Below, one piece after another: positions 1,681-60,376 of a DNA stretch of 64,000 nt. Under the pieces are notes generated by a model. It was not told the origin of the DNA, did not search any database, and was given only the letters and a program-made list of their open reading frames with translations. This stretch comes from Mobula hypostoma (taxonomy: Eukaryota). The stretch spans positions 175,896,001-175,960,000 of the forward strand of contig NC_086097.1 of NCBI RefSeq assembly GCF_963921235.1. The letters are read 5' to 3'. Position 1 is the stretch's first letter, and each line of letters starts with the position of its first letter. The position numbers and the translations under genes are program-made.

Positions 1681-2810
1681 GATTTACTGGAGTAACTCAG
1701 ATGGTCAGGCAGAGGGATGGTCAATTGGAGTTACTCAGCAGTTACTCCTTGTGTTTTACCTGTAAGTGTGATCTTTTGTAGTTCAATATTAACCTAATAT
1801 CAGTCCTGAAGAAGGGTCTCAGCCCAAAATGTTGACAGGTTATTCCACTCCATAGATCCAGTGTGACCCAACGAGCTCCTCCAACATTTTGTGTATGTTG
1901 CTCAATGCTAATGCCATCTCTTTTTTTTTGGGTGTAATGATGTGTTAAGTCAACTCATTTTTGAACCATATAACCCAGGTTAGGATTTAAGGACAGGGAT
2001 GAGGGGGAGTTAGTTTTCAGAGTTAGTAAATGAAGAGTCAGGGGCAAGGGCCCGTACTTGGAGTCCAGCTGGAGGGCTCCGCAGTCGTAGGCCGGCAGTA
2101 TCGGCGGCTGGGCCAGCAGGCACCGAGATCAGAGACCAGCAATCTCCAGGTTGGCGAATCCTGGGTCGGAGGTCAGGTGGACAGGAGGCATGATCAGTGA
2201 GTCCTAGTGTCGAAACTTGAAGGTCAAAATCCTGTGTGTGGGCATGCAATGCTGGCACTGGAATACGTGGCAACTCTTGCGGGATGACTCCAGCACATCT
2301 TTAGATGTTTTGGTTGTTGGCGCAAACAACACATTTCACTGTATGTTTTGATGTAACGAGTAACAGTGCATTTTACCAATCAACCACAAACACAAGGCAA
2401 TCTGTAGATGCTAGAAATCCGAGCAACACAAACAAAATGCTGGAGGAACTCAGCAGGCCGGGTAGCATCTATGGAAAAAAAGTTGACGTTTTGGGCAGAG
2501 GCCCTTCATCAGGACTCAAGAACCCAAAATGTTGACTGCTTATTCTTTTCCATAGATGCTCTCTGGCCTGTTGGATTTTACTGACGGAACACACCACAGT
2601 CACTGCATGTTGGTGATCAACGGAATAAGTGTTTAGGCTGGTGAATGGGGTGTGAAGAAACTTGCTGCTGTTGCCTGAGGAAAAAAAATAAACTAAATAT
2701 TTTTAGAATTAAAAAAAATATATTTCCTCCAGTATTATTTCAGGCCAAAGTAATGAACGGATTGAGGGGAATTCCTATTCCTGAACTAACTGTACAACAT
2801 TGGTAGTCTT

Positions 2811-15600: not shown

Positions 15601-18600
15601 AAAAAAATTGACCAATTTTAGTCCTATTCTGGATGGATTCCAACAGGGGTATATTTTGAGTTCACCATCTTGACCAAACTAGTTTCCAGCCACTCCTGCC
15701 CACACCACAGCCTCTGGAGACTGTAAAGATCTGTGCTAACTGTGATGCCTTTGAGAGTGCCTGGGCAATGGACCCAAGGGCACCTGGATTTGGGGAGTGT
15801 GTCAGGTTTGGGTCAGATTATGGAATATTGACCAATATAGATCTATTTCCAGGGTGATGCAATGTACTCAGTATCACCACCAGTGACATACCTTCTTGAT
15901 CAACAACTTACAGAAGTGTCTTCTGCTCTGCTTTGTTGCAAATGCCACTGTCTTTGAGACTGGCCACTGAAAATGTTAGGCTCAGTCATGTTTGGACTGA
16001 CACTGGTTGGGGTGGGTTCTACAGCAGCAGATCACTGAAGCAAGAATTACAGCAGCCAATTTGCACTAGAGCAGCTCCCACAAAGAGCAAGATGGTAAAT
16101 CAGGTCAACTTTGGAATACACACAAAATGGTGGACGAACTCAGCATATCAGATTCATTCTGGTAAAGTCCAAGGTCTTACCATCTGTCTGGCCCAACTTC
16201 CACATTTGATTGGACTGTATGTTGAAATGGAAAGGTGCTCCAAACGGAGCGCCATCAGCATCGTTGGCAGTGACATTCAAATATTCTGCCTGGCTGCACA
16301 TGCAAGGTTGTGGGTTAGTAAATTTCGGCACATGATCGTTGATATCTTCCACGTTAATCACGATGGTTCCAGTGGTGGTGTCAGAAGAGCCTCCTGTAGC
16401 AGGTGGGGGGTGGGGGACAGAAGAGGAGGAGGAAGAAATTGTTCACAGAAAAATATCACAATATTCTCTGAAAAACATGTATGTTTAAATCCTCACTATA
16501 AAACTGAGAGGAGATCAAGTCCTAAACACAAAAGATTATGTGGACCATAAACAAGAGATTCTGCAGATACTGGAATTCCAGAGTAACACATACAAAATGT
16601 TGAAGGGTCTCGCCTGAAACATCTACTGTTTTTCCTTCTTCATACATGCGGCCTGTCCTGCTGAGTTCTTACAGCAGATTATGCAGACACTGGAAATCTT
16701 GAGTCCGAGATTCTAGGCTTAAAACTTTGACAGTTTATTCCTCTCTGAAGATGCTGCCTGACTTGCTGAGCTCCACCAGCATTTTGTGTGCATTGTGTCA
16801 TGTGTGACGCCCAGCAGAGCTACTGGACGGATGATGCTAATGAGAGATAAGAAAGACAATGGAGAAACATTCAAAATGCTAATAAGAGAGAAGAGAGGGA
16901 TTAACAGGAAAGAAACACAATTCAGATATTGACAAACCAGTTGCTTTGAACCTGAATTGTTTGAAGTTTGATGGACAGGTGATACCCAAGCAGGGGATAA
17001 AAGGAGCAGGTTTGCTAAGGCATGCGACACACCACGGGACCCTGGAAAGAGCAGTGTGCCCCCACAAGTTGGTGGGAGCTTGGAGGACCGGTTTGCGGGA
17101 ACCGACCAGAGGCTCACAGGGTGTAAAGGTATGATCGGTGGGAACCTGGGGTGTATGTCTGCCCTTGCCTGGGTGCCGGGTTCACCGCGGAAGAACGATC
17201 GTATCCGGAACGGAGGGGTCAGAGTTGGTGACCATAGCGAGATTAGAAGACATCAAAAGGTCTGCCCGAAACCAACTGCGAAGACATCAAAAGGTCTGCC
17301 TAAAACCAAATTGCATTTCTCTCTCTCCCCCCCCCAACGGTACAACAACAGCAATTACTGCGAACTGCACTAAACTGAACTGAACTCTGCTTCACTTAAG
17401 ACTGATCATTTTACCCCTAGACTGCGATAGAGCTTGATTGATTCCTATTACCCTAGTTCTGTGTACATGTGTGTATTATCATTGCTAACCTGTTGCATTT
17501 AGATCCTTACGATTAGTGTACTGTATTACTTATTTCTTTAAAAAAACTTTATTAGTTCCTAGTAATCCAGACTCCAATGAGCGTTCCATTTCTGCTGGTT
17601 TGGCAACCCAGTTACGGGATACGTAACAATTGCATGAGAACAAGCACAACTCTTAAGAAAATGCAAATGTGGCAATTTACAATGAAGATTTTATTTGTTT
17701 TAGGACACATCTGAGTGAATATTAAATTTACAACAGCACAGAAACAGGCTACTGTTTTAAAGCCATGCTGACCGATATTTCTATCTATGTCAGTCCCCAT
17801 TTGCCTATGTTTGTCCCAAACATTTCCTGTTCAAGTATCTGTCTTTTAAATGTATGGCCTTTCACCCGCTACTGTTCCTGTCTTAGCCACTTCCTCCGGT
17901 ATTTCATTTCATATCCGCCCCACCCTCTGTGCAAAGAAGTTGCCCCTCATATCCCTTTTAAATCTGTCGCCTCTCACCTTTATCCTCTCGCCTTTTACTT
18001 TTCCTGGAAAATAGGCCCCATCTATGCCCCTCATCACCTCTATACTCTCCACAAGATCACCACTCAATCTTCATGCTCCAAAGAATAAAATTGTAGCCTG
18101 TCCAGCCTCTCCCTATAACTCAGTTCCGCAAGTCCTGGCAGTGTTCTCATAAATCTTTGTTACACTCTTTTCAGCTTAATTACATCTTTCCAATAACAGG
18201 GTGACCAAAACTGAACACAATACTCAAGGTGGAAACTGTCCTTTCTTGTCCATGCATCTATCCAGATGCTTTTTAAATGTTAATGTACTTCCCTCAACTA
18301 CCTAAAAAGAGAGCGAAGGAAAATTCAAAGGAGATGAGTGGGCCAGAGAGCGGTGGGTGCCCGGAAAATGCACTGCCAGGGGTGATGGTGGAGAAAGCTA
18401 CGATAGAGGTGTTTAAGAGGCTCCTAGATAGTTATGTGAACATGTAGAGAATGGAAGGATATGGACACTGTGTGGGCAGAAGGGTTTAGTTAATTAGGTG
18501 TTCTTTGCTTAATTAGTTCAGTACAACATCATGGGCTGAGGGGTTCTTTCTATGCTGCACTATTCTATGTTGTGTTAACAAGTTACAGGGAAAATTACTG

Positions 18601-21600: not shown

Positions 21601-24600
21601 AAGATAAGGAAAGGCTTTTATACTGAGAGATCATGAGACCTTAATATACAGTTGCGGAATTTAGCAATTCAGTCCCAGTCTGTCTGTTATTCAATCATCA
21701 CTGATGTTTTTTCTTTCTTTCTTTCTTTTTAAATCTTTTTATTGAGTAAGTATACAAAAAAGGTAAGCCATATAAACATTAATACAATGTTAAAGTATAA
21801 TAAAATTCCAAAAGATAACAATACCAAAAAGAAAATACTACAAACAATGTAATTTAAGCATAAGAAACCAAGATAACATAATAGTATACTAAATTTTATA
21901 TATATCAATGGAAAAAAAGAAAAAAAAAACAACCCCAAAAAAAAACCCACCGTGCAACTAACTAAAAGCAAAGCAAAGCAATGGGCTAACTTGAAACCAA
22001 ACATAGTTAAACTTAAAATCACGTCCTCAATCCCGACCTCCATTAAAACAGTGAAAAAAAAACAAGAAGGGTAAATATTACATTAAATGAAAATATCGAA
22101 TAAAAGGTCCCCAAATCTGTTCAAATTTAAATGAAGAATCATAAAGGTTACTTCTAATTTTCTCCAGATTCAAACATAAAATCGTCTGAGAAAACCAAAA
22201 AAAGGTAGTTGGAGCATTAAGCTCTGATGTTTTTTCAATCGCACTTTCTTGTCTGCTTCAAGCTTCAAGTTCTTGGGTGTCAAGCTCTCTGATGATCTAA
22301 CCTGGTCCCAACATATTGATGTAGTTATAAAGAAGGCAAGACAGCGGCTATACTTTATTAGGAGTTTGAAGTGATTTGGCATGTCAACAAATACACTCAA
22401 AAACTTCTATAGTTGTACCATGGAGAGCATTCTGACAGGCTGCATCACTGTCTGGTATGGAGGGACTACTGCACAGGACCGAAAGCTGCAGAAGGTTGTA
22501 AATCTAGTCAGCTCCATCTTGGGTACGAGCCTACAAAGTACCTAGGACATCTTCAGGGAGCAGTGTCTCAGAAAGGCAGTGTCCATTATCAAGGACATCC
22601 AGCACCCAGGGCATGCCCTTTTCTCACTGTTACCATCAGGTAGAAGATACAGAAGCCTGAAGGCACACACTCAGCGATTCAGCAACAGCTTCTTCCCCTC
22701 TGCCATCCGATTCCTAAATAGACATTGAAGCTTTGGACACTACCTCACTTTTTTTAATATACAGTATTTCTGTTTTTGCACATTTTTAAATAATCTATTC
22801 ATTATACATAATTGATTTACTTGTTTATTTATTGTTTTATTTTATTTATTATTATTTTTCTCTCTGCTGGATTATGTATTGCATTGAACTGCTGCTGCTA
22901 AGTTAACAAATTTCATGTCACATGCCAGTGATAATAAACCTGATTCTGATAATGCTCAACCCCTTCATCAATCGATTTCTGCATTAAAGATACCCGATTA
23001 CTTGGGCTCCACAACTGTATGTGGCAGCAAATTCCACAGATTTACCACAGTTTGGCTGAAGAAATTCCTCCACATCGCAGTTCTAAAGGGATATTCCTTT
23101 ATTTTTATTCTGAGGCTGTGCCCGTGGGCACAAGAATCTTCTACTAACGGAGATATCCTCTGCATGTCCATTTTATTCAGGCTTTTCAGAGGAAAGTAAA
23201 CTTTTGGAATTCTCTGTGATAGAGGGATGTGAAGGCCCTGCCAAATGCATTCAAAACGAGAATGTTTAAAGGATAAACCTACTCCATGATCAATCTAACA
23301 CGTCCTTCTCACAGAGCCCACAACCTTTCATTTTCCTTACAGCCATATGCCTAAGAGATTTGAAACATGTCACTGTATCAGCCTCCACCACCTCTCCCAG
23401 CAGTGTGTTCCAGTAACCCATGGCTCTGTGTAATGCTGGAGGAACCTGGCAGGTCGGGCAGCAATTATGGGGAGGAATGGGCAGTTGACATTTTAGGCTG
23501 AGACCCTTCATCAGGAGTCCTGATGTATGGTGTATTCTATAGTAACATACACGGTTTACTGTGGTATCTAGAACAGTACAGCATAGAAACAAGGCCTACT
23601 GTAGGCAACATAGTGCCATGCTAATTAAGCATCCAAGTAAACTAATATTTCTAATTAAGCTAATGGTGCTTAATTACAATAGAATTGTCCACACATGGTC
23701 CTAATCCCTTCCTTCTCTGTACATTCATGTGCCTGTGTAACCTGCCTCCACCACCACCCCTAGCAGCACAATACAGGTACCTACCAACTGTATATAAAGA
23801 ATAATTTTTCCTGCACATCCCCTTCATCTAATTCCACAGCTTAAACACCATCTAGCATTAGATATTTCCACCAGGGGAGAAAGATGCACATAAAGTTCAA
23901 AATATATGAGTTGCTTTGCAACCTTACCTTCTGGAGGTTCAAAATTCCCACATTGGTGCGATTATCCACTTCAATCTTGAAGTGTTCCTGTTCATTACCT
24001 TCAATGATGTCAAAATGTGCCAACCAGTTATCAGTGAACTCCAGATCCCTGTCCTGTACTTCCATGCGGAGGATCTCTGAAGCGAGCACATTTTCTTCCA
24101 CAGTTACCTCATACTGAAGCAGAGTATTTAATCAATTTCTTAGTCTAACAAGATCATCTTATTAGACAATGTAGGCTATTAACACAAGGGATCATGCTGT
24201 GTAGAAAATGGCTATCTTGTTTCCTACATACTTACACCCGTTTCCTATAAATCAGTACACCCACACAGCATGATCCCGGTTTACAGAACACCTGAATTTC
24301 AGAAATCTGACTACACAAATTTCGCCATAAATTTTTGAAGTATATTTCAAGATCGGAAAGTTGGTTACAGAAATGCAAACATCCTTGAGAGTTGTGGAAT
24401 AGCAGTAGCAGCAAATTAATTCAGAAGGTAGCAAATCTTCACATAAAAGCTATTCACTTGTAACTACCCCACAGTAATCAATTAGACACCATCAAAATTG
24501 CAGGCCACTGGTTCACAGCGGGAGGCTTTTTATGTGATGTAATTTGGAAACTGGTTAAGCCACCTCTTGCATTGGCATTTATATAATAATTTATCAAACA

Positions 24601-27600: not shown

Positions 27601-30600
27601 AACGCAATAGAAAGGAAGGATATTAGCCAGGAGGATGTGGAATTGATATGGGTAGAGCTGTATAACACTAAGGGGCAGAAAACACTGGTGGGAGTTGTGT
27701 ACAGGCCACCTAACGCAAGTAGTGAGGTTGGGGATGGTATTAAACAGGAAATTAGAAATGCGTGCAATAAAGGAACAGCAGTTATAATGGGTGACTTCAA
27801 TCTACATAATCAAATTGGTAAGGGTGCTGAGGAAGAGGATTTCTTGGAATGTATGCAGGATGGTTTTTTGAACCAACATGTCGAGGAACCAACTAGAGAG
27901 CAGGCTATTCTAGACTGGGTATTGAGCAATGAGGAAGGGTTAATGAGCAATCTTGTCGTGAGAGGCCCCTTGGGTAAGAGTGACCATAATATGGTGGAAT
28001 TCTTCATTAAGATGGAGAGTGACATAGTTCTTTCAGAAACAAACGTTCTGAACTTAAAGAAGGGTAACTTTGAAGGTATGAGATGTGAATTAGCTAGATA
28101 GACTGGCAAATGACACTTAAAGGGTTGACGATGGATATGCAATGGCAAGCATTTAAAGATTTTGGCAAAAGAATAAATCAGGGAAGGTAGTGCACCCGTG
28201 GCTGACAAGGGAAATTAGGGATAGTATCAATTCCAAAGAAGAAGCATACAAATTAGCCAGAAAAAGTGGCTCACCTGAGGACTGGGAGAAATTCAGAGTC
28301 CAGCAGAGGAGGACAAAGGGCTTAATTAGGAAAGAGAAAAAAGATTATGAGAGAAAACTGGCAGGGAACATAAAAATGGACTGTAAAAGCTTTTATAGAT
28401 ATGTGAAAAGAAAAAGATTGGTTAAGACAAATGTAGGTCCCCTACAGACAGAAACAGGCGAATTGATTATGGGGAGCAAGGACATGGCAGACCAATTGAA
28501 TAACTACTTTAGTTCTGACTTCACTAAGGAGGACATAAATAATCTTCCGGAAATAGTAGGGGACAGAGGGTCCAGTGAGATGGAGGAACTGAGTGAAATA
28601 CATGTTAGTAGGGAAGTGGTGTTAGGTAAATTGAAGGGATTAAAGGCAGATAAATCCCCAGGGTCAGATGGTCTGCATCCCAGAGTGCTTAAGGAAGTAG
28701 CACAAGAAATAGTGGATGCATTAGTGACAATTTTTCAAAACTCTTTAGATTCTGGACTAGTTCCTGATGATTGGAGGGTGGCTAATGTAACCCTACTTTT
28801 TAAAAAAGGAGGGAGAGAGAAACCAGGGAATTATAGACCGGCTAGCCTAACATTGGTGGTGGGGAAAATGCTAGAGTCAATTATCAAAGATGTGATAACA
28901 GCACATTTGGAAAGCGGTGAAATCATCGGACAAAGTCAGCATGGATTTATGAAAGGAAAATCATGTCTGACTAATCTCATAGAATTTTTTGAGGATGTAA
29001 CTAGTAGAGTGGATGGGGAGAACCAGTGGATGTGATATATTTGGATTTTCAAAAGGCTTTTGACAAGGTCCCACACAGGAGATTAGTGTGCAAACTTAAA
29101 GCACACGGTATTGGGGGTAAGGTATTGATGTGGATAGAGAATTGGTTGGCAGACAGGAAGCAAAGAGTGGGAATAAACGGGACCTTTTCAGAAAGGCAGG
29201 CAGTGACTAGTGGGGTACCACAAGGCTCAGAGCTGGGACCCCAGTAGTTTACAATATATATTAATGACTTGGATGAGGGAATTAAATGCAGCATCTCCAA
29301 GTTTGCGGATGACACGAAGCTGGGCGGCAGTGTTAGCTGTGAGGAGGATGCTAAGAGGATGCAGGGTGACTTGGATAGGTTAGGTGAGTGGGCAAATTCA
29401 TGGCAGATGCAACTTAATGTGGATAAATGTGAGGTTATCCACTTTGGTGGCAAAAACAGGAAAACAGATTATTATCTGAATGGTAAACAACAGGAATTCT
29501 ACAGATGCTGGAAATTCAAGCAACACACATTAAAGTTGCTGGTGAACGCAGCAGGCCAAGCAGCATCTGTAGGAAGAGGTGCAGTCGACGTTTCAGGCCG
29601 AGACCCTTTGTCAGGACTCCTGACGAAGTGTCTCGGCCTGAAACGTCGACTGCATCTCTTCCTACAGATTATCTGAATGGTGGCCGATTAGGAAAAGGGG
29701 AGGTGCAACGAGACCTGGGTGTCATTATACACCAGTCTTTGAAAGTGGGCATGCAGGTACAGCAGGCAGTGAAAAAGGCGAATGGTATGCTGGCATTTAT
29801 AGCAAGAGGATTCGAGTACAGGAGCAGGGAGGTACTACTGCAGTTGTACAAGGCCTTGGTGAGACCACACCTTGAGTATTGTGTGCAGTTTTGGTCCCCT
29901 AATCTGAGGAAAGACATCCTTGCCATAGAGGGAGTACAAAGAAGGTTCACCAAATTGATTCCTGGGATGGCAGGACTTTCATATGATGAAAGACTGGATC
30001 GACTAGGCTTATACTAGTTGGAATTTAGAAGATTGAGGGGGGATCTTAATGAAACATATAAAATCCTAAAGGGATTGGACAAGCTAGATGCAGGAAGATT
30101 GTTCCCGATGTTGGGGAAGTCCAGAACGAGGGGTCACAGTTTGAGGATAAAGGGGAAGCCTTTTAGGACCGAGATGAGGAAAAACTTCTTCACACAGAGA
30201 GTGGTGAATCTGTGGAATTCTCTGCCACAGGAAACAGTTGAGGCCAGTTAATTGGCTATATTTAAGAGGGAGTTAGATATGGCCCTTGTGGCTAAAAGGA
30301 ATCACGGGTATGGAGGGAAGGCAGGTACAGGGTTCTGAGTTGGATGATCAGCCATGATCGTACTGAATGGCGGTGCAGGCTTGAAGGGCCGAATGGCCTA
30401 CTCCTGCACCTATTTTCTATTTTTCTATAATCAAAAATTCAATATATTGGGCAGAAGATACAAAAGCCAGAAAGCAGAGAGCAGCAGGCAGAAGGACAAC
30501 TTCTGCCCTGTTGTTATAAGACAATTGAATTGTCCACTTGCATGATAAGACAGGCTCTTGACCTCAATCTACCTCGTTATGAATTTGCACTTCATTGTTT

Positions 30601-33600: not shown

Positions 33601-36600
33601 TCTCATTGGTGCTCCAGTTTCTTCCCACACCCCAAAGACATGCAGGCTGGTGGGCTACTTTGGTCGCTGAGTGTGTGGTAGAAGCTGGAGGCGAGTTGAA
33701 TGGGGATGTGGATTAATGCAGGATGTAAAGTACGATCAGATGTCCCCAATATCACCAACCCAGAAATGTGTTCCAGGCCCTTACCACATTGTGTAAAAAA
33801 AACCCCCATCCCTAATGTCTCCCCTAAATATTCCATCACTCACTTTAAAAGAACGTCCTCTTGTATTAGCCATTGCCCCCTGAAAAAGCACTACTGGCTA
33901 TCCACTCTATCTATGCTTCTTATGATCTTAAACAACTCTATCAAGCCACCTCTTATCCTTCTTCATTCCAAAGAGAAAACCCTAGCTTGCTCAAACTTAT
34001 CCTTAGAATACATGCTCTTTAATCCAGGCAGCATCCCGGTCAATCTCTCTGCACCCCCTCTGAAGCTTTTACATCCTTTATTTTATGAGGTGACTGCAAC
34101 TGAACACAATTCTCCAAGTGTGATCTAGTCAGAGTTTTATAAAGTTGCAACATTACTTCACGGCTCTTGAACTCAATCCCCTGACTAATGGAGGCCAGCA
34201 CACCCATATCTTCCTAACCATTTGCATAGCAACTTTGGTAGAGAAATGGATGCAAAGCCCACGATCCTTCTGTTACTCTGCACTGTTGAGAATTCGGCTG
34301 GTACCTCAGTTTGACCTTCCAAAATGTATCATGTTACACTTTTCTGGAATGAACTCCCATCTGCCATTCCTCAGCTCAGCATTCTCTCACTGCCCTGTTG
34401 TAACCTACCACTATCTACACACCACCAACCTTCGTGTCATCTGCAAACTTACTAACCCACCCTTACACCTGCTCGTCCAAGTCATCTATAAAAGCCACCA
34501 AGAACCAGAGCTCCAGGACAGATCACTCTAGCACAGCACTAGTCACTGACCGCCAGGCAGGATATGCTCCATCTGCTACCAGTCTCTGCCTTCCATGGGC
34601 GTTCAGGGTGCTGTTTGACCCACTGAGTTTATGCTCTGCTCGAAGTGGGAGCTACTGGTTAGAGTGGTCTCAGTGAGCTGGAATACGCCCCATCTCTACA
34701 CAGCAACACACGCATGAGTAGTACTTTTACTAACCTCACGGTCCAGTTTAGGGTCCATTACTTGAACTACCCCGTCCGAACTGACAGCAAAAATTTTCTT
34801 ATGGATGTCAATAATGCTATAAGAAATCATGCCATTTTCACCAATGTCTTTATCTGTTGCTCTTATCGTAAGTGCAGCGGTACCTGGGGGGTGGGGGGGA
34901 GGAGGAAGCAAAGAAGCAGGTTTACATGAACAAACTAAAATCTTACCCCTTGTTAAATTCTTTATTTGGAGTATTGCATTCAATCCTGGCCACCCCACAT
35001 TAGGAAGGATCTAAAAACGCAAACACGAAGAAACCTGCAGATGCTGGAAATTCAAGCAACACACATCAAAGTTGCTGGTGAACGCAGCAGGTCAGGCAGC
35101 ATCTCTAGGAAGAGGTACAGTCGATGTTTCGGGCCGAGATGCAGGCAGCTGACATCTTTCTCCTCAGGGAGAAAGTTACTACTACTAGAAGGCATGCATT
35201 ATAGGTGAGAGGGCACAAATTCAAAGGAGATGTGCAGGACAAATTTTCATTTTACATGGAGAGTGGTGGGTTCTCTGGTGGTTTGATGTTTATTTTTAGA
35301 AGCTTTTTGTATGACGCATGGCTCTGGGGTTGTACACCTAATGGAGGTTCCCCCTCCCCCCCCCCACTTTTTCTGCTTAGTACGGTTTTTTTATTATCAC
35401 AAAATTTTTCAAACTTTAAGATAATGTTTTTTCTCCTTGAGACATTGTAAGTGTTGTTACTTCGATGTGCTCGTGTTATTTTTTTTTGAATAATATAATA
35501 ATAAAAAGATTTGAAAACAAAGAGAGTTCCTGCAATGGACTGCCAGGGGTGGTAGTGGGGGCATCTACAACAGAGCTGTATGGGTGACTCTTAGTCAGGC
35601 ACATGAATATACAGGGAAAGGAAGGATACGGGCCATGTGCAGGCAGGAGGGATTAAATTATTTAGGCATCAATGGCGTAATTAGTTTGGCACAACATTGG
35701 GCTGCTTTTAGCTTATTATTGTCACATGTACAGTGAAAAGCTCATCATGCATAATGTTTATACAGATCAAATAATTACAGTGTATTGAAGTAGGACAAGG
35801 TAAAACAATAACAATGAAATCAAAGTGTAAATCCAGTGAAAAAGTGCAGTGTAGGTAAATGATAAAGTGGAAGATCACAAGGGGGTAGACTGTATGGCCA
35901 AGAGTCCATGTTATCGTACAAGACATCTGTTCAAAAGTCTGGTAAAGTGGGATTTGAGCTGTCAGTGAGCCTGTTGGTATGTTCTTTCAGGCTTTTGTAT
36001 CTTCTGCTCGATGGGAGAGGGGAGAAGAGGGAATGTCCAGACAGAGTGGGGTCTTTGATTATGCTGGCTGTTTTACTAAGGCAGTGAGAAATATAGAGTC
36101 CACAGAGGAGAGGCTGTTCCTGTGTTGTGCTGAGTTGTGTCCACACTCTCTACACCTTCTTATGGTTATGTGCAGAGCAGTTACCATTATGCATAAAGAC
36201 AGAATGATTTCTATGGTGCATCAATAAAAATCAACATTATGGGCTGAAAGGCCCATTCCTCTGCTGTACTGTTCTATTTTCTCAGTTCTCATGTGATAAC
36301 CGTGCATCAATTTTCCCAATGGGATTTCAGGGCGTGCATAAATGTCAGCAACATATTGAAGATAGCATGGTGAGGCAACAGTTAATGTTGCTGTCACCAG
36401 CTCCAGAGGCTCTAGTTCAATTCTGACCCAAGTACTGTTCCCCCTGTGGCTGAGGAGGGTGATACAAGTTTCCACCCATGTCTCAAATGTTCATTGGCGT
36501 AGTTAAACTGGCAAGGGAATCACAGGATTGTGGTTGGATATTTAGGAGAGAATTGGACGGCCACTGGGAAAAGAAGTAGAAAACCGAATGGCACCAATGG

Positions 36601-39600: not shown

Positions 39601-42600
39601 CTTGAGAACAGGGTGTGGTGTGCTGAGACTTGCACATTCCCTGGGAACCTTCTCAGCATCTTGTGGAATTTCCCATTTGTGACGTTATGTCACCACTCTT
39701 TTTTAAAAAAAAAGAATCAGATTTCGGAGGTTTTTGGATTTTGGAATTGTGGGGAAGGGGTGCTCAACCTGTATCTGCAAATCCACTAGTCTGCTGGTGG
39801 TTGAAGACAGTCTGTCCCGAGGTTGGAAAACTATGTATATGTACGTGTTAGTAGGTAGGAGTGAGGAATGGGGCTTGTTTGGTTACTTTTTGTATTCTGT
39901 GTTATTCTGCTGAGCGTTGTGGATATGCTAAGTAGGCGCTGGAATGCGTGACAATACTTGTGGTCTGCCACAGTACACCCTTAGGTTGTGCTGGTTGTTA
40001 ACGCAAGCAATGCATTTCACTGTATATTTTGATGTACATGTAATAAACAAATGAACCTGAATCTCATTCTTCAAACAATCCCACATTTTCCAATCTCAGT
40101 ATTCAATCCCTTGTTATTGGGGCCACTGCAGTAAATCCTAGCTAGGCCCACTCTGGGACTGTCCTCTCCATCTGATCACCGAGACGCTTTGGTGCTTCTT
40201 TCCATGCTTGTGAAAAACAACTATTCCCACTAATTTTTCAAAATTTTCCTCTAGCTTTGTCCCAGTTTCTAATTACTCATTCAATGGAGTGACTGGCACT
40301 TACGGAACACAGCGACTTCCCAGGGCTTTAAGAGAGGCTATGTAAGGGTCAACTTCAGTGGCAATGATTAATAAATATTGAGGTTATGCCTTGAAGAATC
40401 AGATGGTTTTACGACAACCCAGTGCTTTCAGAGTCATTGCAAAAGAGATTACTTTTGTAATCTCAGACTTGTACTTACTTAAATTAATTTACAATTCCCA
40501 GCTACTTTGATGGGAATTCAAGTTCTGTCCTTAGACCTTCGGTTCTTAATTAGAACACAAGAACAGTACAGCACTCATTGCCGTGTCAAATGAATTAAGC
40601 TAGCAAGTAACTGACTAACTAACTAAATTAACCACCTCTGCCTAGGCAATGTCCACATGCCTCCATTGGTTGGACATTCATGTGACAATCTAGCAGCCTC
40701 TCTATCACATTTGCCTTCATAATGAATCCTGGCAGCACATTCCAATCACCCATCACCCTCTGTGTAAAACTGCCTCACATATCTCCTTCCAGCTTTCCCC
40801 TTGTCACCTTAAATGCATGCCCTCTAAAATTATACATTTCAAATCTGGGAAAAGATACCAGTTGGCTATTAATGCCTCTCATAATCTGATAAACTAGTAT
40901 CAAGTCTTCTCTCTGCCTCTGCTGTTCCAGAAAAAAACAACCCAAACATGCCCAACATCTCTTCCAAAAGCATGTCCACTAATCCAGACAAAATCCTGGT
41001 AAACCTCTACTGCACCCTCCTCCCAAGTCTTCACATCTTTTCTGTAATGGGGTAACTAGAATTGAACGTGTAGGGCTCTCAGTAATATTAGATGGACTGT
41101 TAACTGTTAATTGCCTATTACAAAATGGCTTCTCTGAAGTGTCAAAATAAAATGGTTTCTCGCACTGTCAACTTCAGAGTAAGGAGTTCTCTGTGGCAGC
41201 ATGTTTGGGTTATACTTAGTGATAATGGAAATTGTATTCGTTTGCTAGCCAATGGAGGTCATGTTATGCTATCTTGTATGTGTGTGCTGAGCTGAGGATC
41301 ACGGGCTTTTTTGGGAGGAGAACCGAAGAGGAAGGACGTGCTGGACGTGCTCTGGTCGACCACCGTGGTTGGACCCAGGCGGCAGGTCGAGGAGGTCGGC
41401 GGGAATTGAATGGTGGAACGAAGACCCCATTAATTGAGCTCCAACGGTTGTGCACGAAGTGGTTGAACTCTGATAAGTTTGGTGCCTTTTACTTTCCTTT
41501 TATATTCTATCTCTATTAATTACACAGTTCCAGTAAGATTTATAAAGTGTAATCTGTAAATCATACATAGTGTGCTGTCTGATATTTGATGTGTGAGTTT
41601 GTACCAGATGGTGTTACACAGTAACTACGCAAAAGTGATTCATGGTTTGCTGGGCAGACCGGGTTTCCCCTAGACAAACACAAGTGGATAGCCCTGAGCA
41701 TTACATTTGCGGGGGCCATCATCCGGGGTTGAATTCTGTGGAAGCTGTGTAAATTGCCACGTTAAGTTAGTGCAGAGATGGACCGGGATAAGATTGCAAG
41801 CTGGTGTGAGTCCGAGGACGTACCGGTTAATCATGCGCGCGTGTTAAGTGGGGTGGATTTCCGCACTTCGGAAGAAGTGCTAGTGAGAGGGTTGAGTCTG
41901 ATTAAAGCCATCGGTAAGGTAGAACTCGTAGCTAGAAGGTGTGGTAAAGTAGTGGAATCCAGCTTGGTGTTGGTTCGTACGAGTGCTCTCGTCATCATGT
42001 TGGAACTGCCAGCAACGGTCAGCGTCCCGAGAGGTGGGGCTGTGGGGCCTCCACACCCTCCTGGAGGACAAATGTGAGGAGACACTGGAGGAAGAGCTTG
42101 ATGAGGCACCAGGGGAGGTGCCAGTAGCCAGTGGTGGAGGGTTGAAGGAATTTGCGAGGGAACGAGTTCTCAGGGTAATGAGGGAGGAGGGGCAAGAGGG
42201 GTCAGAGTGGGAAGGATTGGTCAGGCCCCGTCCCCCAGCTAGAGGTGAGACCTCCGAGTTGGCAGCCGCCATTACCTCCCTGGCGAGAAGGGCCGAGGGG
42301 CCCCACCCGAAGCTGGGAATTTTCTCAGGAGCCATGCCCACCCCGGAAGGGGAGGACGTTTTTGAGATATGGATCGAAAACATGTCCCAGTTGTTAGGGG
42401 AGTGGCCAGGCTCGGATGAAGAAAAGAGACAGTGATTGATGGAAAGTTTGCGGGGAGTGGCGGCTGGTGTCGTCCGAGGGGGTGAAAGCTGAACAGTCCT
42501 CGGCTTCCCAGGCGGAGTACAGGTGTCCCCAGCTTTTCGAATGTTCGCTTTACGAAACCTTACTGTTACGAAAGACCAACATTAGTTCCTTGTTTTCGCT

Positions 42601-57600: not shown

Positions 57601-60376
57601 ATTATCTGAATGGTGGCCGATTAGGAAAAGGGGAGGTGCAACGAGACCTGGGTGTCATTATACACCAGTCATTGAAAGTGGGCATGCAGGTACAGCAGGC
57701 GGTGAAAAAGGCGAACGGTATGCTGGCATTTATAGCGAGAGGATTCGAGTACAGGAGCAGGGAGGTACTACTGCAGTTGTACAAAGCCTTGGTGAGACCA
57801 CACCTGGAGTATTGTGTGCAGTTTTGGTCCCCTAATCTGAGGAAAGACATCTTTGCCATAGAGGGAGTACAAAGAAGGTTCACCAGATTGATTCCTGGGA
57901 TGGCAGGTCTTTCATATGAAGAAAGACTGGATGAACTGGGCTTGTACTCGTTGGAATTTAGAAGATTGAGGGGGGATCTGATTGAAACGTATAAGATCCT
58001 AAAGGGATTGGACAGGCTAGATGCGGGAAGATTGTTCCCGATGTTGGGGAGGTCCAGAACGAGGGGTCACAGTTTGAGGATAGAGGGGAAGCCTTTTAGG
58101 ACCGAGATTAGGAAAAACTTCTTCACACAGAGAGTGGTGAATCTGTGGAATTCTCTGCCACAGCAAACTGTTGAGGCCAGTTCATTAGCTATGTTTAAAA
58201 GGAAGTTAGATATGGCCCTTGTGGCTACAGGGGTCAGGGGGTATGGAGGGAAGGCTGGGTTCTGAGTTGGATGATCAGCCATGATCATAATAAATGGCGG
58301 TGCAGGCTCGAAGGGCCGAATGGCCTACTCCTGCACCTATTTTCTATGTTTCTATATGCTGTTATCAATGTAATGTATAACTGAATCATAACTTTAGAAC
58401 TCTTCATTGTTAGATTTTATAGGTGTATCTGCATACCAGGCTTATTCACCAGGATACCAGGTGCCTCTGTGTCCCAGAACTCTAGAAACTCTCACATTAT
58501 CTCAATCTGCCAGGTCTTTCCCCATTCTCTTAATCTATCTTTACAAAAACTTAAGACATAGGAGACGAATAAGGCCATTCAGCCCATCAAGTCTGCACCA
58601 CATGCTTCGATTATGGCTTATTTTTCATCTCAACCCCATTCTCCTGCCTTCTCGCTGGAACCTTTGACACCCTTATTAATCAAGAACCATCAACCTCCAT
58701 TTAAAATGTGCCCTCTGACTTGGCTCCACAACTGTCTGTGGCAAAGAATTTCATATATGCACCACCTTCTGGCTAGAGAAATTTCTCCCCATTTCTGATC
58801 TAACAAGATGTCTTTGTATTCCGAGGCTGTGCCCTCTGGCTCTTAATTACCCCATTATTGGAAACAACCTCTCTGTGTCCTCTCTATCTAGTCCTTTCAA
58901 TATTCGATAGGCTTCAATGAGCTTTCCCCTCATTTTTCTAAACTCCAACAAGTACAGGCCCAGACCCATCTAATGCTGCTTATATATTCCTGAGACCATT
59001 TTCATAATCCTCTGGCCCCTCTCTAATGCCAACACATCCCTTCTTAGATATGGGGCCCAGAACTGCTCATAATATTCTAATATGTTCTGATCAATGCCTT
59101 ATAAAGTTTCCACATTACATCCTTGCCTTTATATTCTAGTCCTCTTGAAACGAATGCCTTCTTCACCACTTACTTTCAGCAACACACACAAAACACTGGA
59201 GGAATGAAATGGCTCATGCAGCATCTATGGAGGGAAAAGGGCATTCAACACTTTGGCCTGCAGCTCTTCAGCAGGACTGGAAAGATAGAGGGAAGATGGT
59301 GGGGTGGGAAGGGGTGGAGCAAGTGCTGGTAGGCGATAGCGGGATCCAGGTGAGATGGGGGGGGGGGATAATAGGCAGGTGAGGGAGGGGATGAGTGGGA
59401 ATGATGCAAGAAACTGCGGGGTGTTGGGTGAAAGTATCAAAAGGCTAAAAAAGATGAACTCTGAAAGGAGGGCATGGGATAAAAGGAATAGGGTGAGGGC
59501 AACATGGTGACTTAGTGCTGGAGGTTACTATGCCTATACCTTATCCCCAGAATTCCATTGTTTGCCAAAGGCCTGTAGCATGCCATATGAATTCCCAGGC
59601 TATTCAGGTAAGATTTACACTATTATTAGCCTGTCCTGGGGTTGCAGTGGGAGGGAGAAAAGGAGGGAAGTGTGTGAGAGTTGGAAGGAGGAAGGGGCCT
59701 TGATTTGTTATAGCATTGCTGTTGTGGATGCTTGTGTTGTTCTGGGCATGGTGGGCGTGCTTAGCTGGCACCAGAATGCGTGGTGAACTTGCTGGCTGCA
59801 CCCCCCCGCCACCCCCGGCACATCCTGGTTGCTAAAGCTAACAATACATTTCACTGTATGTTTGGATGTATATGCGAATGAGACTGCAGGCACAATTACA
59901 GTTTCTAAATTAGTGTTAGGCTAATTATGATCGAAGCATTGAGCAGTGTGGGCTTCACAGGCTGAACCAAGACAGGCTCCCCACCCTCCACTGTATGTCG
60001 ATGACAATAATGCAACAATTCCCAAACACAAGCGATTCTGCAGATGCTGGAAATCTTGAGAAATACATGCAAAATACTGCAGAAACTCAGCAAGTCAAGC
60101 AGCATCTCTGGAGGGGAATAAACAGTTGAATGCTATTGACCCCAGTCTTGAATGTTCTCAGTAATAAACCAATTCCAATTCTGATCATCTGCTCTCTGGA
60201 TGCATGTCTACACAATGTGGGTCAAACTACTGATATCAACCTACAATGGCAATGGGATTATTGCTTGGGGGCTCATTTTCTCGAACATCGATAGGCGGAG
60301 AGATCCATTCTCGCTTCTGGCGGTGGGAGGTCCTCCTGGTTGGAAATCGGATGACTTGGATTCCTCTCCTTTCAGC
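2811..60376 (-). CDS. DSG2: Desmoglein (DSG2-like desmosomal cadherin), 13 coding exons (equivalent to exons 3-15); 5' exons outside the window
   Basis: Hand-spliced exons give one open frame of 3087 nt: short propeptide with furin site RQKR|EWISPP (Trp2), EC1-EC4 with DRE/DxNDN/DxD Ca2+ motifs, EC5/anchor, TM, juxtamembrane CxC, ICS (LLIYNSEG..SPVGSLGCCS..FLNDLDPKFKMLAKIC) and NVVVT-type repeat tail. Intron phases 0,0,1,0,0,0,2,1,1,1,0,0 match the desmoglein pattern as I recall it. The family call is solid; orthology to DSG2 specifically is not proven. Confidence 0.9.
4389..5063 (+). mobile_element. Tigger-type non-autonomous DNA transposon, right half only (same family as 42520-44101)
   Basis: Colinear with 43430-44101; ends in TIR ...ggcgggggaaacctg followed by TA; embedded in a Penelope-like remnant (EQHLIFRL codons at ~4363-4386). 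Confidence 0.85.
7446..7745 (-). CDS. DSG2: Desmoglein exon 14 (intracellular region, ICS start)
   Basis: ttacag|CTG...CGG|gtatgt; 300 nt open; ends MLSGASRSFVKQYINR, comparable to the desmoglein 'FL.xYF.xK' motif. Confidence 0.82.
9721..9857 (-). CDS. DSG2: Desmoglein exon 13 (TM end, juxtamembrane region); absent from the ORF track
   Basis: ttctag|TT...ACG|gtttgt; 137 nt; LPLLLLFCKCGSGFGGKNSFILEERNRVDGTLGQSSIEGGGQVDT; phase 1 to 0 fits both neighbours. Confidence 0.9.
10490..13050 (-). mobile_element. Decayed CR1 LINE (endonuclease to RT to 3' end)
   Basis: Minus-strand ORFs carry CR1 ORF2 motifs: [48 protein letters not shown]. Confidence 0.9.
12519..12722 (+). mobile_element. tRNA-derived SINE inserted in the CR1
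   Basis: A-box-like tggtgtagtg, B-box gttcgaatcc, (TTC)n tail, imperfect TSD aatagtgata/aataatgaca; the CR1 resumes on both sides. Confidence 0.75.
14789..15019 (-). CDS. DSG2: Desmoglein exon 12 (anchor and transmembrane helix)
   Basis: ttaaag|CG...C|gtaagt; 231 nt; TSMRLVPLKHLWPGVFSVPVWIEDADSKGHTVTLDVHVTDCYTIDHCSSDRLIQSKVELGGSAVALIILSLLLLLL. Confidence 0.94.
15120..15570 (+). repeat. G-rich low-complexity tract
   Basis: Dense GGG/GGGG runs with imperfect ggggtaggtgggg(t)gcc.aggg units. Confidence 0.75.
16181..16393 (-). CDS. DSG2: Desmoglein exon 11 (EC4 end, EC5/anchor)
   Basis: ctacag|GA...G|gtaaga; 213 nt; GSSDTTTGTIVINVEDINDHVPKFTNPQPCMCSQAEYLNVTANDADGAPFGAPFHFNIQSNQMWKLGQTD. Confidence 0.95.
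16796..17628 (+). mobile_element. Solo LTR (833 bp)
   Basis: TG...CA termini (tgtcatgtg / tacgtaaca), 4-bp TSD ATTG on both sides, TATA-like gggataaaagg (~16994), internal 21-bp duplication gaagacatcaaaaggtctgcc. Confidence 0.8.
18992..19137 (-). CDS. DSG2: Desmoglein exon 10 (EC4)
   Basis: caacag|G...C|gtgagt; 146 nt after an 86-nt intron; YAKDRDMANWLSIDSQTGKVTIDGVIDRESEYVIDGKYTATVLAISNE. Confidence 0.95.
19224..19486 (-). CDS. DSG2: Desmoglein exon 9 (EC3 end, EC4 start)
   Basis: acccag|GAG...AA|gtaagt; 263 nt; ELDFEEMEQIHLVIRLSNKAPYHH...VKNVAEGIVFKPS...IGIYPAVSADTGQPLEMT. Confidence 0.95.
19616..20668 (+). mobile_element. 5'-truncated CR1 LINE (RT C-terminal half and 3' UTR)
   Basis: [34 protein letters not shown]; one frameshift near 20110; tail (tcttatgg)n. 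Confidence 0.93.
21423..21503. mobile_element. Short hAT-like MITE
   Basis: Inverted termini cagaggttcccaa / ttgggaaccctg; no clean 8-bp TSD. Confidence 0.45.
21714..22223 (-). mobile_element. 5'-truncated L1-type LINE (ORF2 C-terminus and 3' UTR)
   Basis: Minus strand reads ELNAPTTFFWFSQTILCLNLEKIRSNLYDSSFKFEQIWGPFIRYFHLM*, then AATAAA and a (GAAA)n tail; exact 13-bp TSD ctgatgttttttc at 21701 and 22224. Confidence 0.85.
22260..22950 (+). mobile_element. Rex1/Babar-type LINE 3' fragment
   Basis: SFKFLGV, KKARQRLYF, HPGHALFSLLPSGRRYRSL, NSFFPSAIR; tail gataataaacctgattctgat; closely similar to 61700-62379. Confidence 0.8.
23928..24113 (-). CDS. DSG2: Desmoglein exon 8 (EC3)
   Basis: cttcag|TAT...AAG|gtaagg; 186 nt; YEVTVEENVLASEILRMEVQDRDLEFTDNWLAHFDIIEGNEQEHFKIEVDNRTNVGILNLQK. 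The DxDxEFTDNWLA motif is typical of desmogleins. Confidence 0.96.
25292..25687 (+). mobile_element. CR1 LINE 3' end
   Basis: MRGDLIETYKIIKG...RTRGHSLRI...FTQRVV; tail ctattgtctattg; near-TSD gaatgagatg/gaatgatatg. Confidence 0.88.
29485..29667. mobile_element. 183-bp Penelope-derived palindromic insertion inside the CR1
   Basis: Exact 14-bp TSD attatctgaatggt (29471-29484, 29668-29681); absent from the sister CR1 at ~57601; inverted repeat 29565-29669 with 52-bp arms. Confidence 0.88.
29616..29652 (+). ncRNA. Minimal type I hammerhead ribozyme motif (Penelope pLTR type)
   Basis: CTGACGA (29620-26), short stem II, GAAAC-GTC (29640-47), gactg; mirrored copy on the minus strand at 29583-29619 (agtc-CTGACAA-agggtctcggcct-GAAAC-GTC-gact). 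Activity untested. Confidence 0.65.
31038..31172 (-). CDS. DSG2: Desmoglein exon 7 (EC2 end)
   Basis: atgaag|ACG...ACG|gtaagc; 135 nt; TKDLYSLRIEARDLGGNINGLHATTTVRIKILDVNDNIPSLEKTT. Confidence 0.93.
31481..32195 (+). mobile_element. Rex1/Babar-type LINE 3' fragment
   Basis: TKEVVMDFRK, YKCLGVHLDNRLEWS, LYFLMRLRPF; ends gggatcaataaagtatctgtct. Confidence 0.75.
34735..34883 (-). CDS. DSG2: Desmoglein exon 6 (EC2)
   Basis: ccccag|GT...GAG|gttagt; 149 nt; (G)TAALTIRATDKDIGENGMISYSIIDIHKKIFAVSSDGVVQVMDPKLDRE. Confidence 0.93.
35271..35525 (+). mobile_element. L1-like 3' UTR fragment inserted in a CR1 remnant
   Basis: T-rich sequence ending aataaaaagatttgaaaacaaagaga, the same terminus as the L1 at 21714-22223. 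Confidence 0.5.
37061..37205 (-). CDS. DSG2: Desmoglein exon 5 (EC1 end with CAR site, EC2 start)
   Basis: tctcag|ATT...G|gtgagt; 145 nt; IIGHAYDQFGVQKETPIDLFIKVLDVNDNPPEFNQTVFEGSVEELSLT. Confidence 0.95.
37660..38080 (+). mobile_element. Rex1/Babar-type LINE RT fragment
   Basis: EWCHNNNLSVNVNKTKLIIDFR; KKAQQHLYFL...TLTNFYRCVV. Confidence 0.75.
38851..39771. mobile_element. Tigger/pogo-type non-autonomous DNA transposon (921 bp)
   Basis: TIRs caggttgagtaccc / ggggtgctcaacctg, flanked by TA on both sides; contains a short CR1 piece at ~39220-39310. Confidence 0.88.
41069..41705 (+). repeat. Gypsy 5' LTR
   Basis: tgtagggctctcagtaatattag...gccctgagcattaca; direct repeat of 49149-49785. Confidence 0.95.
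42520..44101 (+). mobile_element. Internally deleted Tigger (pogo-like) DNA transposon nested in the Gypsy gag
   Basis: TA TSD (42518-19, 44102-03); imperfect TIRs caggtgtccccagcttttcgaa / ttcggatggcggggagac; transposase N-terminal HTH piece (VKLDIIKRFDRGERSKDKV) fused to a C-terminal piece (DDVVKVLASHDLELINEEVMQLEEE...YDFNFER...YKELYD). Confidence 0.9.
43355..43532. repeat. Inverted repeat (hairpin) with ~70-bp arms inside the Tigger element
   Basis: ccgggatgcacccagcacatctttaagaaaaaaagccgaaataaacatgctaattaattaggtgc (from 43355) versus gcacctaattaattagcatgtttatttcggcttttttcttaaagatgcgctgtgtgcctcccgg (to 43532). Confidence 0.92.
44788..49107 (+). pseudogene. Gypsy pol (protease, RT, RNase H, integrase), disrupted
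   Basis: RICLDYRTLN, FSVLDLRSGYYQI, MPQG, VYLDDLIVF, LHTDAS, HDDSGHLG..YWPRM..C..C, LVCMDFL, DHYTRYA, PYYLMFGRKARLPID; many stops and frameshifts plus an RNase H deletion near 46935. Confidence 0.93.
49149..49785 (+). repeat. Gypsy 3' LTR
   Basis: tgtagggttctcagtaatattag...gccctgagcgttaca. Confidence 0.95.
50920..51081 (-). CDS. DSG2: Desmoglein exon 4 (EC1)
   Basis: ccttag|ATC...ACG|gtaagt; 162 nt; IRSDFDSLPDVKITYKITGPGADKPPIGLFVIDSLTGNLIITGKVDREVTPNFT. Confidence 0.95.
51139..52237. mobile_element. Tigger-like MITE with an internal insertion
   Basis: TIRs cagtagattctggttaattggg / cccaattaaccggaatccactg; starts about 57 bp from the exon 4 acceptor; TA TSDs eroded. Confidence 0.8.
51592..52047 (+). 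mobile_element. Possible RTE 5'-UTR-derived non-autonomous element
   Basis: Compositionally distinct block; ctcttgcctgtggct...cacacccc...gggctaaactaggtgaagg resembles vertebrate RTE 5' ends from memory; ends in caacaacca. Confidence 0.4.
53230..54090 (+). pseudogene. Endogenous retrovirus integrase relic (split by a SINE)
   Basis: VVHLQMDIMLLPKCMGKNYVLVFV (from 53382), WVEACQTLRSDAVTIAKF (53467-53520), FDIPETMSNNNNSHFTDSLVQELTK (from 53765), NCPY, QRNGLLKS, VLPLALITM, HEIIL, in retroviral integrase order. Confidence 0.8.
53525..53755 (+). mobile_element. tRNA-derived V-SINE-like element inserted in the ERV integrase
   Basis: tagtgtagtggttagtgc A-box, gagttcaatt B-box-like, ggttcctcccatgttccaaaaatgtgcaggttag V-domain-like, A-rich tail. 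Related copies at 32440-32700 (-), 33555-33720 and 36360-36480. Confidence 0.6.
54090..55107 (+). pseudogene. Endogenous retrovirus env relic (gamma-type TM subunit)
   Basis: PINGTY*GC, WRCCCFLAYVTP, IISMAFELEKLA, ITAEMVTLQNPLAFD/LLVEKGGT*AIISQKCCMYIPDRTENITNLA (ISD plus CX6CC, first Cys read as TGA), hydrophobic SWGNSIVQWAMGAIFFLVVTFV, then a purine tract aaaagaaaaggga (55095-55107). Confidence 0.85.
55821..58355 (+). mobile_element. Young 5'-truncated CR1 LINE with an uninterrupted ORF2 frame
   Basis: ORF 55803-58265 (820 aa) with endonuclease C-half and a complete RT, no stops; tail tattttctatgtttctat; same subfamily as 27211-30428. Confidence 0.96.
58550..59170 (-). mobile_element. Decayed CR1 3' end
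   Basis: Reverse complement of CR1 3' sequence similar to 10490-11150. Confidence 0.75.
60245..60376 (-). CDS. DSG2: Desmoglein exon 3: propeptide, furin site, mature N-terminus
   Basis: ttttcacag|GCT...ATT|gtaggt; 132 nt; AERRGIQVIRFPTRRTSHRQKREWISPPIDVRENEPPSNNPIAI. Confidence 0.93.

What the first reader, a model, noticed from the sequence alone, without database searches (positions are those of the whole stretch)
29471..29681. 183-bp hairpin retro-insertion with back-to-back hammerhead motifs and a perfect 14-bp TSD
Seen: the insert splits a young CR1 (the sister copy has the empty site). It is flanked by attatctgaatggt twice and folds into 52-bp arms with 3 mismatches around a 1-nt centre (tcagga-c-tcctga). 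Each arm holds a hammerhead core, so both strands encode one; each copy has a lesion (CTGACAA on -, weak stems I/II on +). The same inverted junction recurs at 23511 (tcagga-g-tcctga). Established: Penelope minimal hammerheads have a palindromic ACGU stem III thought to work as dimers, and Penelope insertions often have inverted pLTRs. Inference: a tiny non-coding ribozyme-bearing mobile unit (retrozyme- or SINE-like) whose inversion point sits at the ribozyme 5' edge, mobile after this CR1 inserted.
Basis: partly seen in the sequence, partly recalled or inferred. Interest (0 to 1): 0.75.

Follow-up and report, generated by a model that had tools for sequence, protein, structure and literature searches.

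The report
Stub-sized two-armed Penelope insertion
This 183-base hairpin is real but is one of the shortest of many mirror-image insertions of a very abundant Penelope-type jumping gene, likely built on the spot from two short DNA copies of the element's end joined head to head, and not a separate ribozyme-bearing mobile unit.

Summary
In detail: 183-bp insert, perfect 14-bp TSD, 52-bp arms with 3 mismatches, two damaged minimal hammerheads, empty site in a sister CR1. Both arms are the 3' end of a Neptune-type Penelope family (at least 87,619 exact anchor matches). Only 87 loci carry the exact junction motif, against 44,713 arms that run on into the element. Copies with this junction occur in both polarities and 12 subfamily haplotypes and form no lineage. 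Two-armed insertions range from about 100 bp to kilobases; 155 of 156 have the tail on one arm only; the TSD mode is 14. This layout is published (PMC3846280, PMC8557442). In 22 of 57 sampled pairs the tail-less arm is the deeper one, which argues for two separately primed cDNAs. In the hairpin both ribozyme cores are predicted to be locked in duplex. The same CR1 site took at least 38 such insertions. The scan reported this kind before, in this genome and others. Interest is low.

The parts
29471..29484 (.). Target-site duplication, left copy (14 bp)
   Evidence: single copy in the sister CR1 at 57601-57614
29485..29618 (-). Tail-bearing arm: the last 134 nt of the Penelope-type element (positions q1-134 counted from the tail end), element sense on minus
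   Evidence: 95.5% identical to natural long copy L238 q1-134
29485..29517 (-). The roughly 33-nt 'tail', present on one arm only
   Evidence: tail-less arms usually begin at q33-40; tail described in PMC3846280, PMC8557442, PMC11167929
29583..29618 (-). Minimal hammerhead motif of the long arm; core G8 changed to A (CTGACAA); predicted cut between 29587 and 29586
   Evidence: G at this position in 96% of 56 sampled arms
29616..29618 (.). Head-to-head junction: long arm ends at q134, short arm starts at q132, sharing 1 nt
29618..29669 (+). Tail-less inverted arm (q132 to q83, plus 2 nt shared with the TSD), element sense on plus; shorter than usual
   Evidence: 6 of 143 tail-less arms start at q83-89
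29616..29651 (+). Hammerhead motif of the short arm; stem I broken by the junction, stem II mismatched; predicted cut after 29647
29668..29681 (.). Target-site duplication, right copy (14 bp)
27739..30429 (+). Host LINE (CR1-type by RT motifs, label recalled), interrupted in its RT region; lies in an intron of a minus-strand cadherin gene
57601..57614 (+). Empty site in the sister CR1 copy (55821-58356)
23434..23525 (.). Older-subfamily arm ending at q132 followed by an 8-bp inverted stub (G centre); no TSD found

Best explanation
The insert is a very short two-armed, head-to-head insertion of an abundant Neptune-type Penelope-like retrotransposon, likely made in one event when both strands of a staggered target cut each primed a short DNA copy of the element's RNA end. 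Shown by sequence: both arms are the element's 3' end, one arm has the tail and the other lacks it, a 14-bp TSD brackets the pair, and sister insertions of this layout have every size. Inferred steps: (1) the element's RT-endonuclease, probably a dimer, cuts both strands about 14 nt apart at a loosely mirror-symmetric site; (2) one 3' end primes at the tail end (q1) and the other at an internal site (usually q33-40, here q83 with 2 nt of microhomology); (3) both cDNAs stop early, often just past the hammerhead's 5' edge; (4) their ends are joined through 0-6 nt of microhomology or a short filler. The product is likely a dead intronic insertion whose ribozyme cores are paired off in the hairpin.
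For: Parent element: long copies carry an ORF with RT and GIY-YIG matches just under Pfam's cut-offs, and DKG, CX2-5CxxC and CCHH motifs (motifs defined in PMC8557442). Abundance: 65,433 + 22,186 anchor matches; 44,713 run into the body. Layout: 155 of 156 two-armed insertions have the tail on exactly one arm. TSD of 10 bp or more in 143 of 156, mode 14, against 1 of 156 with mismatched flanks. Two cDNAs: in 22 of 57 position- or tail-sampled pairs the tail-less arm reaches more than 10 nt deeper than the tailed arm, so neither arm can be a copy of the other. Target: mirror-symmetric bias in 58 sites (A at -8/-7/-3, T at +3/+7/+8). Same target, different inserts: 38 insertions at this CR1 site against 0 at a site about 30 bp upstream; the 20 examined all differ in arm extents and 5 share the identical 14-bp TSD. 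In vitro, a Penelope protein cuts and extends both strands and starts at two sites flanking the tail (PMC11167929, parts 1-2 of 4 read).
Against: For this one copy the short arm lies wholly within the long arm's range, so fold-back copying cannot be excluded from it alone; 23 of 57 pairs have inner ends within 10 nt and fit either model. PMC11167929 saw no difference in start site between strands, whereas genomic pairs here are almost always tail/no-tail. Many arms have no adjacent partner (24 of 59 short arms). No full-length or intact source copy was recovered; the longest arm reached about q3000. No biochemistry was done, and no RT tree, so the Neptune label rests on motifs.
Confidence: 0.85

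Rival explanations
1. Same parent element, but the second arm was made by fold-back self-priming of a single copy, as proposed for palindromic Penelope junctions in rotifers.
For: PMC3846280 interprets head-to-head palindromes as self-priming (passages read). Near-symmetric centres are common (23 of 57). Arms within an insertion agree at 631 of 676 diagnostic sites against 52% when shuffled.
Against: 22 of 57 pairs cannot be copies in either direction. 12 of 39 exact-junction copies have the tail-less arm 2 nt deeper. 7 of 156 insertions differ between arms at 2 or more of 5 diagnostic sites, two of them at 4.
Confidence: 0.09
2. A non-autonomous hairpin unit (SINE- or retrozyme-like) that moves as a whole from its own master copy.
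For: At least 87 loci carry the exact junction motif. The 30 best hits share the left end, most share the centre, and most have TSDs. Arm ends pile up at the ribozyme edge.
Against: That hit list was selected by the hairpin query. Exact-junction copies show both polarities (27 and 12), 12 haplotypes, 27 label changes on a tree against 29.2 when shuffled, with 97 of 500 shuffles as low (the tree is poorly resolved). One sits in a 72%-identity subfamily (L166). Their right ends vary from q25 to q83. Another junction is as common: 5 against 4 of the first 50 listed. Non-LTR retrozymes are defined as tandem arrays (bioRxiv 10.64898/2026.07.22.740005).
Confidence: 0.03
3. A longer two-armed insertion whose middle was later deleted by recombination, leaving a short hairpin.
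For: Long palindromes are unstable (general knowledge, recalled), and junctions often show microhomology.
Against: Single-arm copies with a clean TSD end at the same positions (L038, L040). Multi-kilobase arms persist. Recurrent ends at q133-137 are not expected from random deletion.
Confidence: 0.03

Closest known systems
Endonuclease-bearing Penelope-like insertions with an inverted pLTR and one-sided tail (Pen2a_Av and Pen2_Av of Adineta vaga, PMC3846280, passages read; overview in PMC8557442, passages read)
   Same: Head-to-head inverted pLTR, palindromic junction, inverted copy shorter by about 35 nt, 30-40-nt tail on one side, one TSD around the whole insert.
   Different: Here both arms are under 140 nt and no ORF is left. 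The TSD is tightly 13-15 bp (8-10 bp in the rotifer cases read). That paper proposes self-priming; the pairs here favour two primed cDNAs.
Minimal hammerheads of metazoan PLEs (Cervera and De la Pena 2014, PMC4209133, parts 1-2 of 4 read)
   Same: Short helix I, extra base between positions 9 and 10.1, palindromic positions 15.2-16.2 with no loop 3. The paper also notes pairs of motifs 100-700 bp apart on opposite strands and ties single motifs to truncated PLEs.
   Different: Helix II is only 3-4 bp, pair 10.1-11.1 is G-U in this copy, both copies are damaged, and opposite strands cannot form the tandem dimer.
Poseidon element of Anolis (PAc) in vitro (PMC11167929, parts 1-2 of 4 read)
   Same: Both strands cut and extended, two start sites flanking the tail, AT-rich targets, ribozyme cut not needed for insertion.
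   Different: Different clade (a linker Zn motif is present here); two-armed products and a 14-nt stagger were not reported in the parts read; 1-nt average microhomology is seen at priming ends here.
Non-LTR retrozymes (bioRxiv 10.64898/2026.07.22.740005, parts 1-2 of 5 read; PMC7229834, search listing only)
   Same: Non-coding, hammerhead-bearing, related to PLE pLTRs.
   Different: Retrozymes are head-to-tail tandem units with intact ribozymes; this is a single head-to-head pair with buried cores and no lineage of its own.
L1 twin priming (recalled, no call)
   Same: Both target strands prime and an inversion results.
   Different: In L1 the two cDNAs cover different parts of the RNA; here both start near the same 3' end and overlap, giving a palindrome.

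Membership tests
EN+ Penelope-like element (parent family) | ORF with RT and C-terminal GIY-YIG endonuclease | tested here: met
   RVT_1 E 2e-5 and GIY-YIG E 2e-4, both just under Pfam cut-offs and in different copies; domain order seen in P0001
EN+ Penelope-like element (parent family) | DKG motif and CCHH motif | tested here: met
   DKG in L238; two cysteines between the GIY- and YIG-like motifs and two later histidines in P0001; definitions
EN+ Penelope-like element (parent family) | Inverted 5'-truncated copy, one-sided 30-40-nt tail, TSD | tested here: met
   155 of 156 pairs tail/no-tail; TSD in 143 of 156
EN+ Penelope-like element (parent family) | Partial tandem with direct pLTRs, full-length ORF | tested here: inconclusive
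   no such copy among fetched loci; longest arm about 3 kb; not searched genome-wide
Neptune clade | CX2-5CxxC linker between RT and EN | tested here: met
   C-x4-C-x2-C in P0001; shared with Nematis
Neptune clade | RT phylogenetic placement | not tested
   no reference PLE proteins were fetched
Minimal PLE hammerhead | CUGANGA and GAAA cores, extra base after A9, palindromic ACGU, short helix I | tested here: met
   met in the family (56 arms); damaged in both arms of this copy
Minimal PLE hammerhead | Self-cleavage as a dimer | not testable with these tools
   needs an assay; the 3-fold excess of arm ends at the cut site is confounded
Non-LTR retrozyme | Head-to-tail tandem units each with an intact hammerhead | tested here: not met
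   single head-to-head pair; cores paired in the predicted fold
Non-LTR retrozyme | Abundant circular or monomer RNA | not testable with these tools
   only assembled contigs of guessed type were available
SINE-like non-autonomous family | Copies descend from a master with shared ends and diagnostic mutations | tested here: not met
   both polarities, 12 haplotypes, no clustering; variable right ends

The most novel reading that the evidence does not exclude
The family's two-armed insertions are a genome-scale record of how Penelope elements integrate: a dimer cuts both strands 14 nt apart, the two ends prime at two different RNA sites (tail and no tail), occasionally on RNAs of different subfamilies, and copying most often stops at a fixed landmark at the ribozyme's 5' edge (an RNA start or a protein-bound splice acceptor), with a smaller stop at the ribozyme cut site that would show cleavage in vivo.
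Probability: 0.5. Interest if true: 0.45.

Novelty: new member of a known kind. Interest (0 to 1): 0.2.

Why it matters
As a single locus it matters little: a probably neutral intronic stub. The family data bear on an open point, since PMC8557442 and PMC11167929 both say the steps that make Penelope's inverted structures are not yet defined or validated. The tail/no-tail rule, the 14-bp stagger and the arm-depth asymmetry give concrete predictions for existing in vitro systems. The result also warns that short palindromes with a ribozyme on each strand are a routine Penelope by-product and should not be filed as new ribozyme elements.

Tried and rejected
Rfam scan: no hammerhead match; the motif was checked by hand and script instead. 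Own lineage for the exact junction: rejected. A CR1 that carried the insert and multiplied: rejected, the 20 loci at this site all hold different inserts. Spliced copies joining q132 to the end of the ORF: 2 pattern matches, both irregular deletions; none of 37 arms leaving the element at q131-139 continued into a distant upstream part in the same orientation, so no spliced form was found. Ribozyme cut site as main stop: 3 ends in q101-105 among 100 arms, no excess; genome-wide 612 apparent ends at q102 against 206 at q99 and 209 at q105, but 36 of the first 100 listed (counted by eye) read as joins through a GTC repeated within the element, so this is only a hint. RNA: no RNA holder listed; only contigs of guessed type, which cannot show starts, strand or level. 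One search used a pattern in the wrong orientation (0 matches) and is uninformative. A phage search with the element protein found nothing and has no bearing. Literature searches; the twin-priming and staggered-cut searches listed no paper that applies these to Penelope elements, judged from listings only; subscription papers and Repbase were not searchable, and no supplements were read.

Full report
Observation. The insert spans 29485-29667 between two identical 14-mers (29471-29484, 29668-29681) and holds 52-nt inverted arms, 94% complementary, around a 1-nt centre. It folds far better than shuffles. A sister LINE copy at 55821-58356 has the 14-mer once. The host LINE lies between minus-strand cadherin exons near 31.1 kb and 24.0 kb (2 of 6 exon candidates matched Pfam Cadherin). 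The site at 23511 has only an 8-bp inverted stub in an older copy without a detectable TSD.

What the arms are. Positions q count from the tail end. The long arm is q1-134 and the short arm q132-83 of one repeat. A search with the whole insert gave 3,749 candidates; all 40 scored were hairpins, which the query selects for. A search with the tail region alone gave a different picture: of 29 other loci fetched, 11 showed an adjacent inverted arm within 1.5 kb, none had this junction, and many ran on for hundreds of bases. [quoted passage not shown] Whole-genome exact counts: 87,619 for a q51-75 anchor, 49,195 reaching q132, 44,713 continuing into the body, 1,817 hairpins with a 0-30-nt spacer at the ribozyme edge and 87 with this exact centre. 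Exact patterns miss mutated copies, so these are lower bounds and the ratios are approximate.

The layout is a continuum. Across all fetched loci L001-L352, which include sets chosen for hairpins, 156 distinct two-armed insertions passed the filter (both arms at least 85% like the reference, gap -30 to 40); 155 have the tail on exactly one arm. Arms run from 45 nt to over 2 kb. A TSD of 10 bp or more was found in 143 of 156, 119 of them 13-15 bp, against 1 of 156 in a control with mismatched flanks. This is the published structure: an inverted 5'-truncated copy, a one-sided 30-40-nt tail and one TSD (PMC8557442; PMC3846280). Cervera and De la Pena already noted hammerhead pairs on opposite strands 100-700 bp apart.

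No lineage of its own. Of 39 exact-junction pairs, 27 have the long arm at q134 and the short at q132, and 12 the reverse; the first class is favoured by the query. They fall into 12 haplotypes at five diagnostic sites. On a tree of 37 exact and 84 other arms (those covering q3-130) the label changes 27 times against 29.2 when shuffled; the tree is weakly resolved, so this shows absence of clustering only. One exact junction lies in a 72%-identity subfamily (L166). A 134/146 junction is as frequent among the first 50 listed, 5 against 4.

How it likely formed. Among 57 pairs sampled by position or by tail, the tail-less arm is deeper by more than 10 nt in 22, the tailed arm in 12, and 23 are within 10 nt. 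In the 22, neither arm contains the other, so both must come from RNA. The two arms usually share subfamily letters (631 of 676 sites; shuffled 52%), but 7 of 156 insertions differ at two or more sites, which may mean two RNAs in one complex. Target sites show a loose mirror-symmetric bias around the 14-mer (58 sites); this site matches 5 of its 6 main positions. The same CR1 site holds 38 tail-end insertions in this orientation against 0 at a site about 30 bp upstream, with 24,270 exact matches to the site's intact sequence; one control site is a thin control. The 20 loci examined all differ inside and 5 share the identical TSD, so the target sets the duplication and the insert length is chance. 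This fits the in vitro finding that a Penelope protein cuts and extends both strands from two start sites around the tail (PMC11167929). For this one copy, fold-back copying cannot be excluded.

Arm ends pile up at the ribozyme's 5' edge. Of 100 arms anchored at q51-75, 11 end at q131-137 (2.3% per nt) against 0.6% upstream and 0.7% downstream; of 80 anchored at q108-132, 20 end at q132-137. With stricter end calling, 33 of 133 arms at risk end at q133-137. Genome-wide, 2,320 arms appear to end at q133 against about 200 at q99 or q105, with different anchors. The samples overlap, come mostly from the start of one chromosome, count both arms of some insertions, and the bins were chosen after looking. 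The cause is not shown. The sequence there reads as a pyrimidine tract plus AG and also contains an initiator-like hexamer (both motifs recalled), and in Drosophila virilis an intron ends at the 5' end of helix I (PMC4209133). No spliced copy was found here. A 3-fold excess at the predicted cut site is confounded by microhomology.

Function. In a head-to-head pair each strand reads the antisense arm first. In the predicted fold nearly all core bases are paired, and freeing them costs 26 kcal/mol on plus and 19 on minus. With the G8 change on minus and the broken stems on plus, ribozyme activity of this copy is unlikely. RNA data were not informative.

Novelty and verdict. A real, fairly recent insertion of a known kind. 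Earlier notes of this scan, read after my own analysis, describe the same stubs, the same mechanism, the pile-up near the ribozyme and a CR1 hot spot in this and other genomes; they are unchecked and add no independent support. The host is probably a ray or other cartilaginous fish (recalled resemblance and those notes; not tested). Interest 0.2.

Noticed in passing
window 14760-37307, minus strand: Exons of a cadherin gene (candidates at 37307-37056, 35010-34699, 31199-31005, 24131-23844, 16442-16143, 15071-14760); two match Pfam Cadherin. It looks desmosomal in type (recalled, not tested). The finding lies in one of its introns.
   Followed up: partly
window 29463-29689 and loci L353-L372, L036, L055: This CR1 position is an insertion hot spot for the Penelope family: 38 tail-end insertions in one orientation against 0 at a neighbouring site; at least one insertion in the opposite orientation (L036).
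   Followed up: yes
window 2388-2570, 50614-50786, 16602-16781, 10179-10250: Older, 70-80% identical relatives that also look two-armed, two of them with an arm ending at q134; no TSDs found in the two tested (2388, 50614).
   Followed up: partly
window 35021-35139: Single tail-bearing arm (q1-119, 89% identical) right beside a cadherin exon; no TSD found.
   Followed up: partly
window 43302-43593 and 4393-5055: A palindromic repeat of about 130-290 bp unrelated to the Penelope arms (weak mir-7131 model match, below threshold), part of a longer repeat with a second copy at 4393-5055; possibly a MITE-like element.
   Followed up: no
L101, L102, L163: Two-armed insertions whose arms differ at 3-4 of 5 subfamily-diagnostic sites, suggesting two different RNAs used in one event.
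   Followed up: partly
L091:4030-4085 (q420-470): A possible second cluster of arm ends near the stop codon of the ORF (ends at q421-468 in several samples); not tested statistically.
   Followed up: no
L176: The one insertion seen with the tail on both arms (q1-925 and q1-2758, about 650 bp apart by the shorter reference).
   Followed up: no
window 41069-41705 and 49149-49785; 22261-22948 and 61713-62379: Other recent repeat pairs (93% and 87% identical), unclassified.
   Followed up: no
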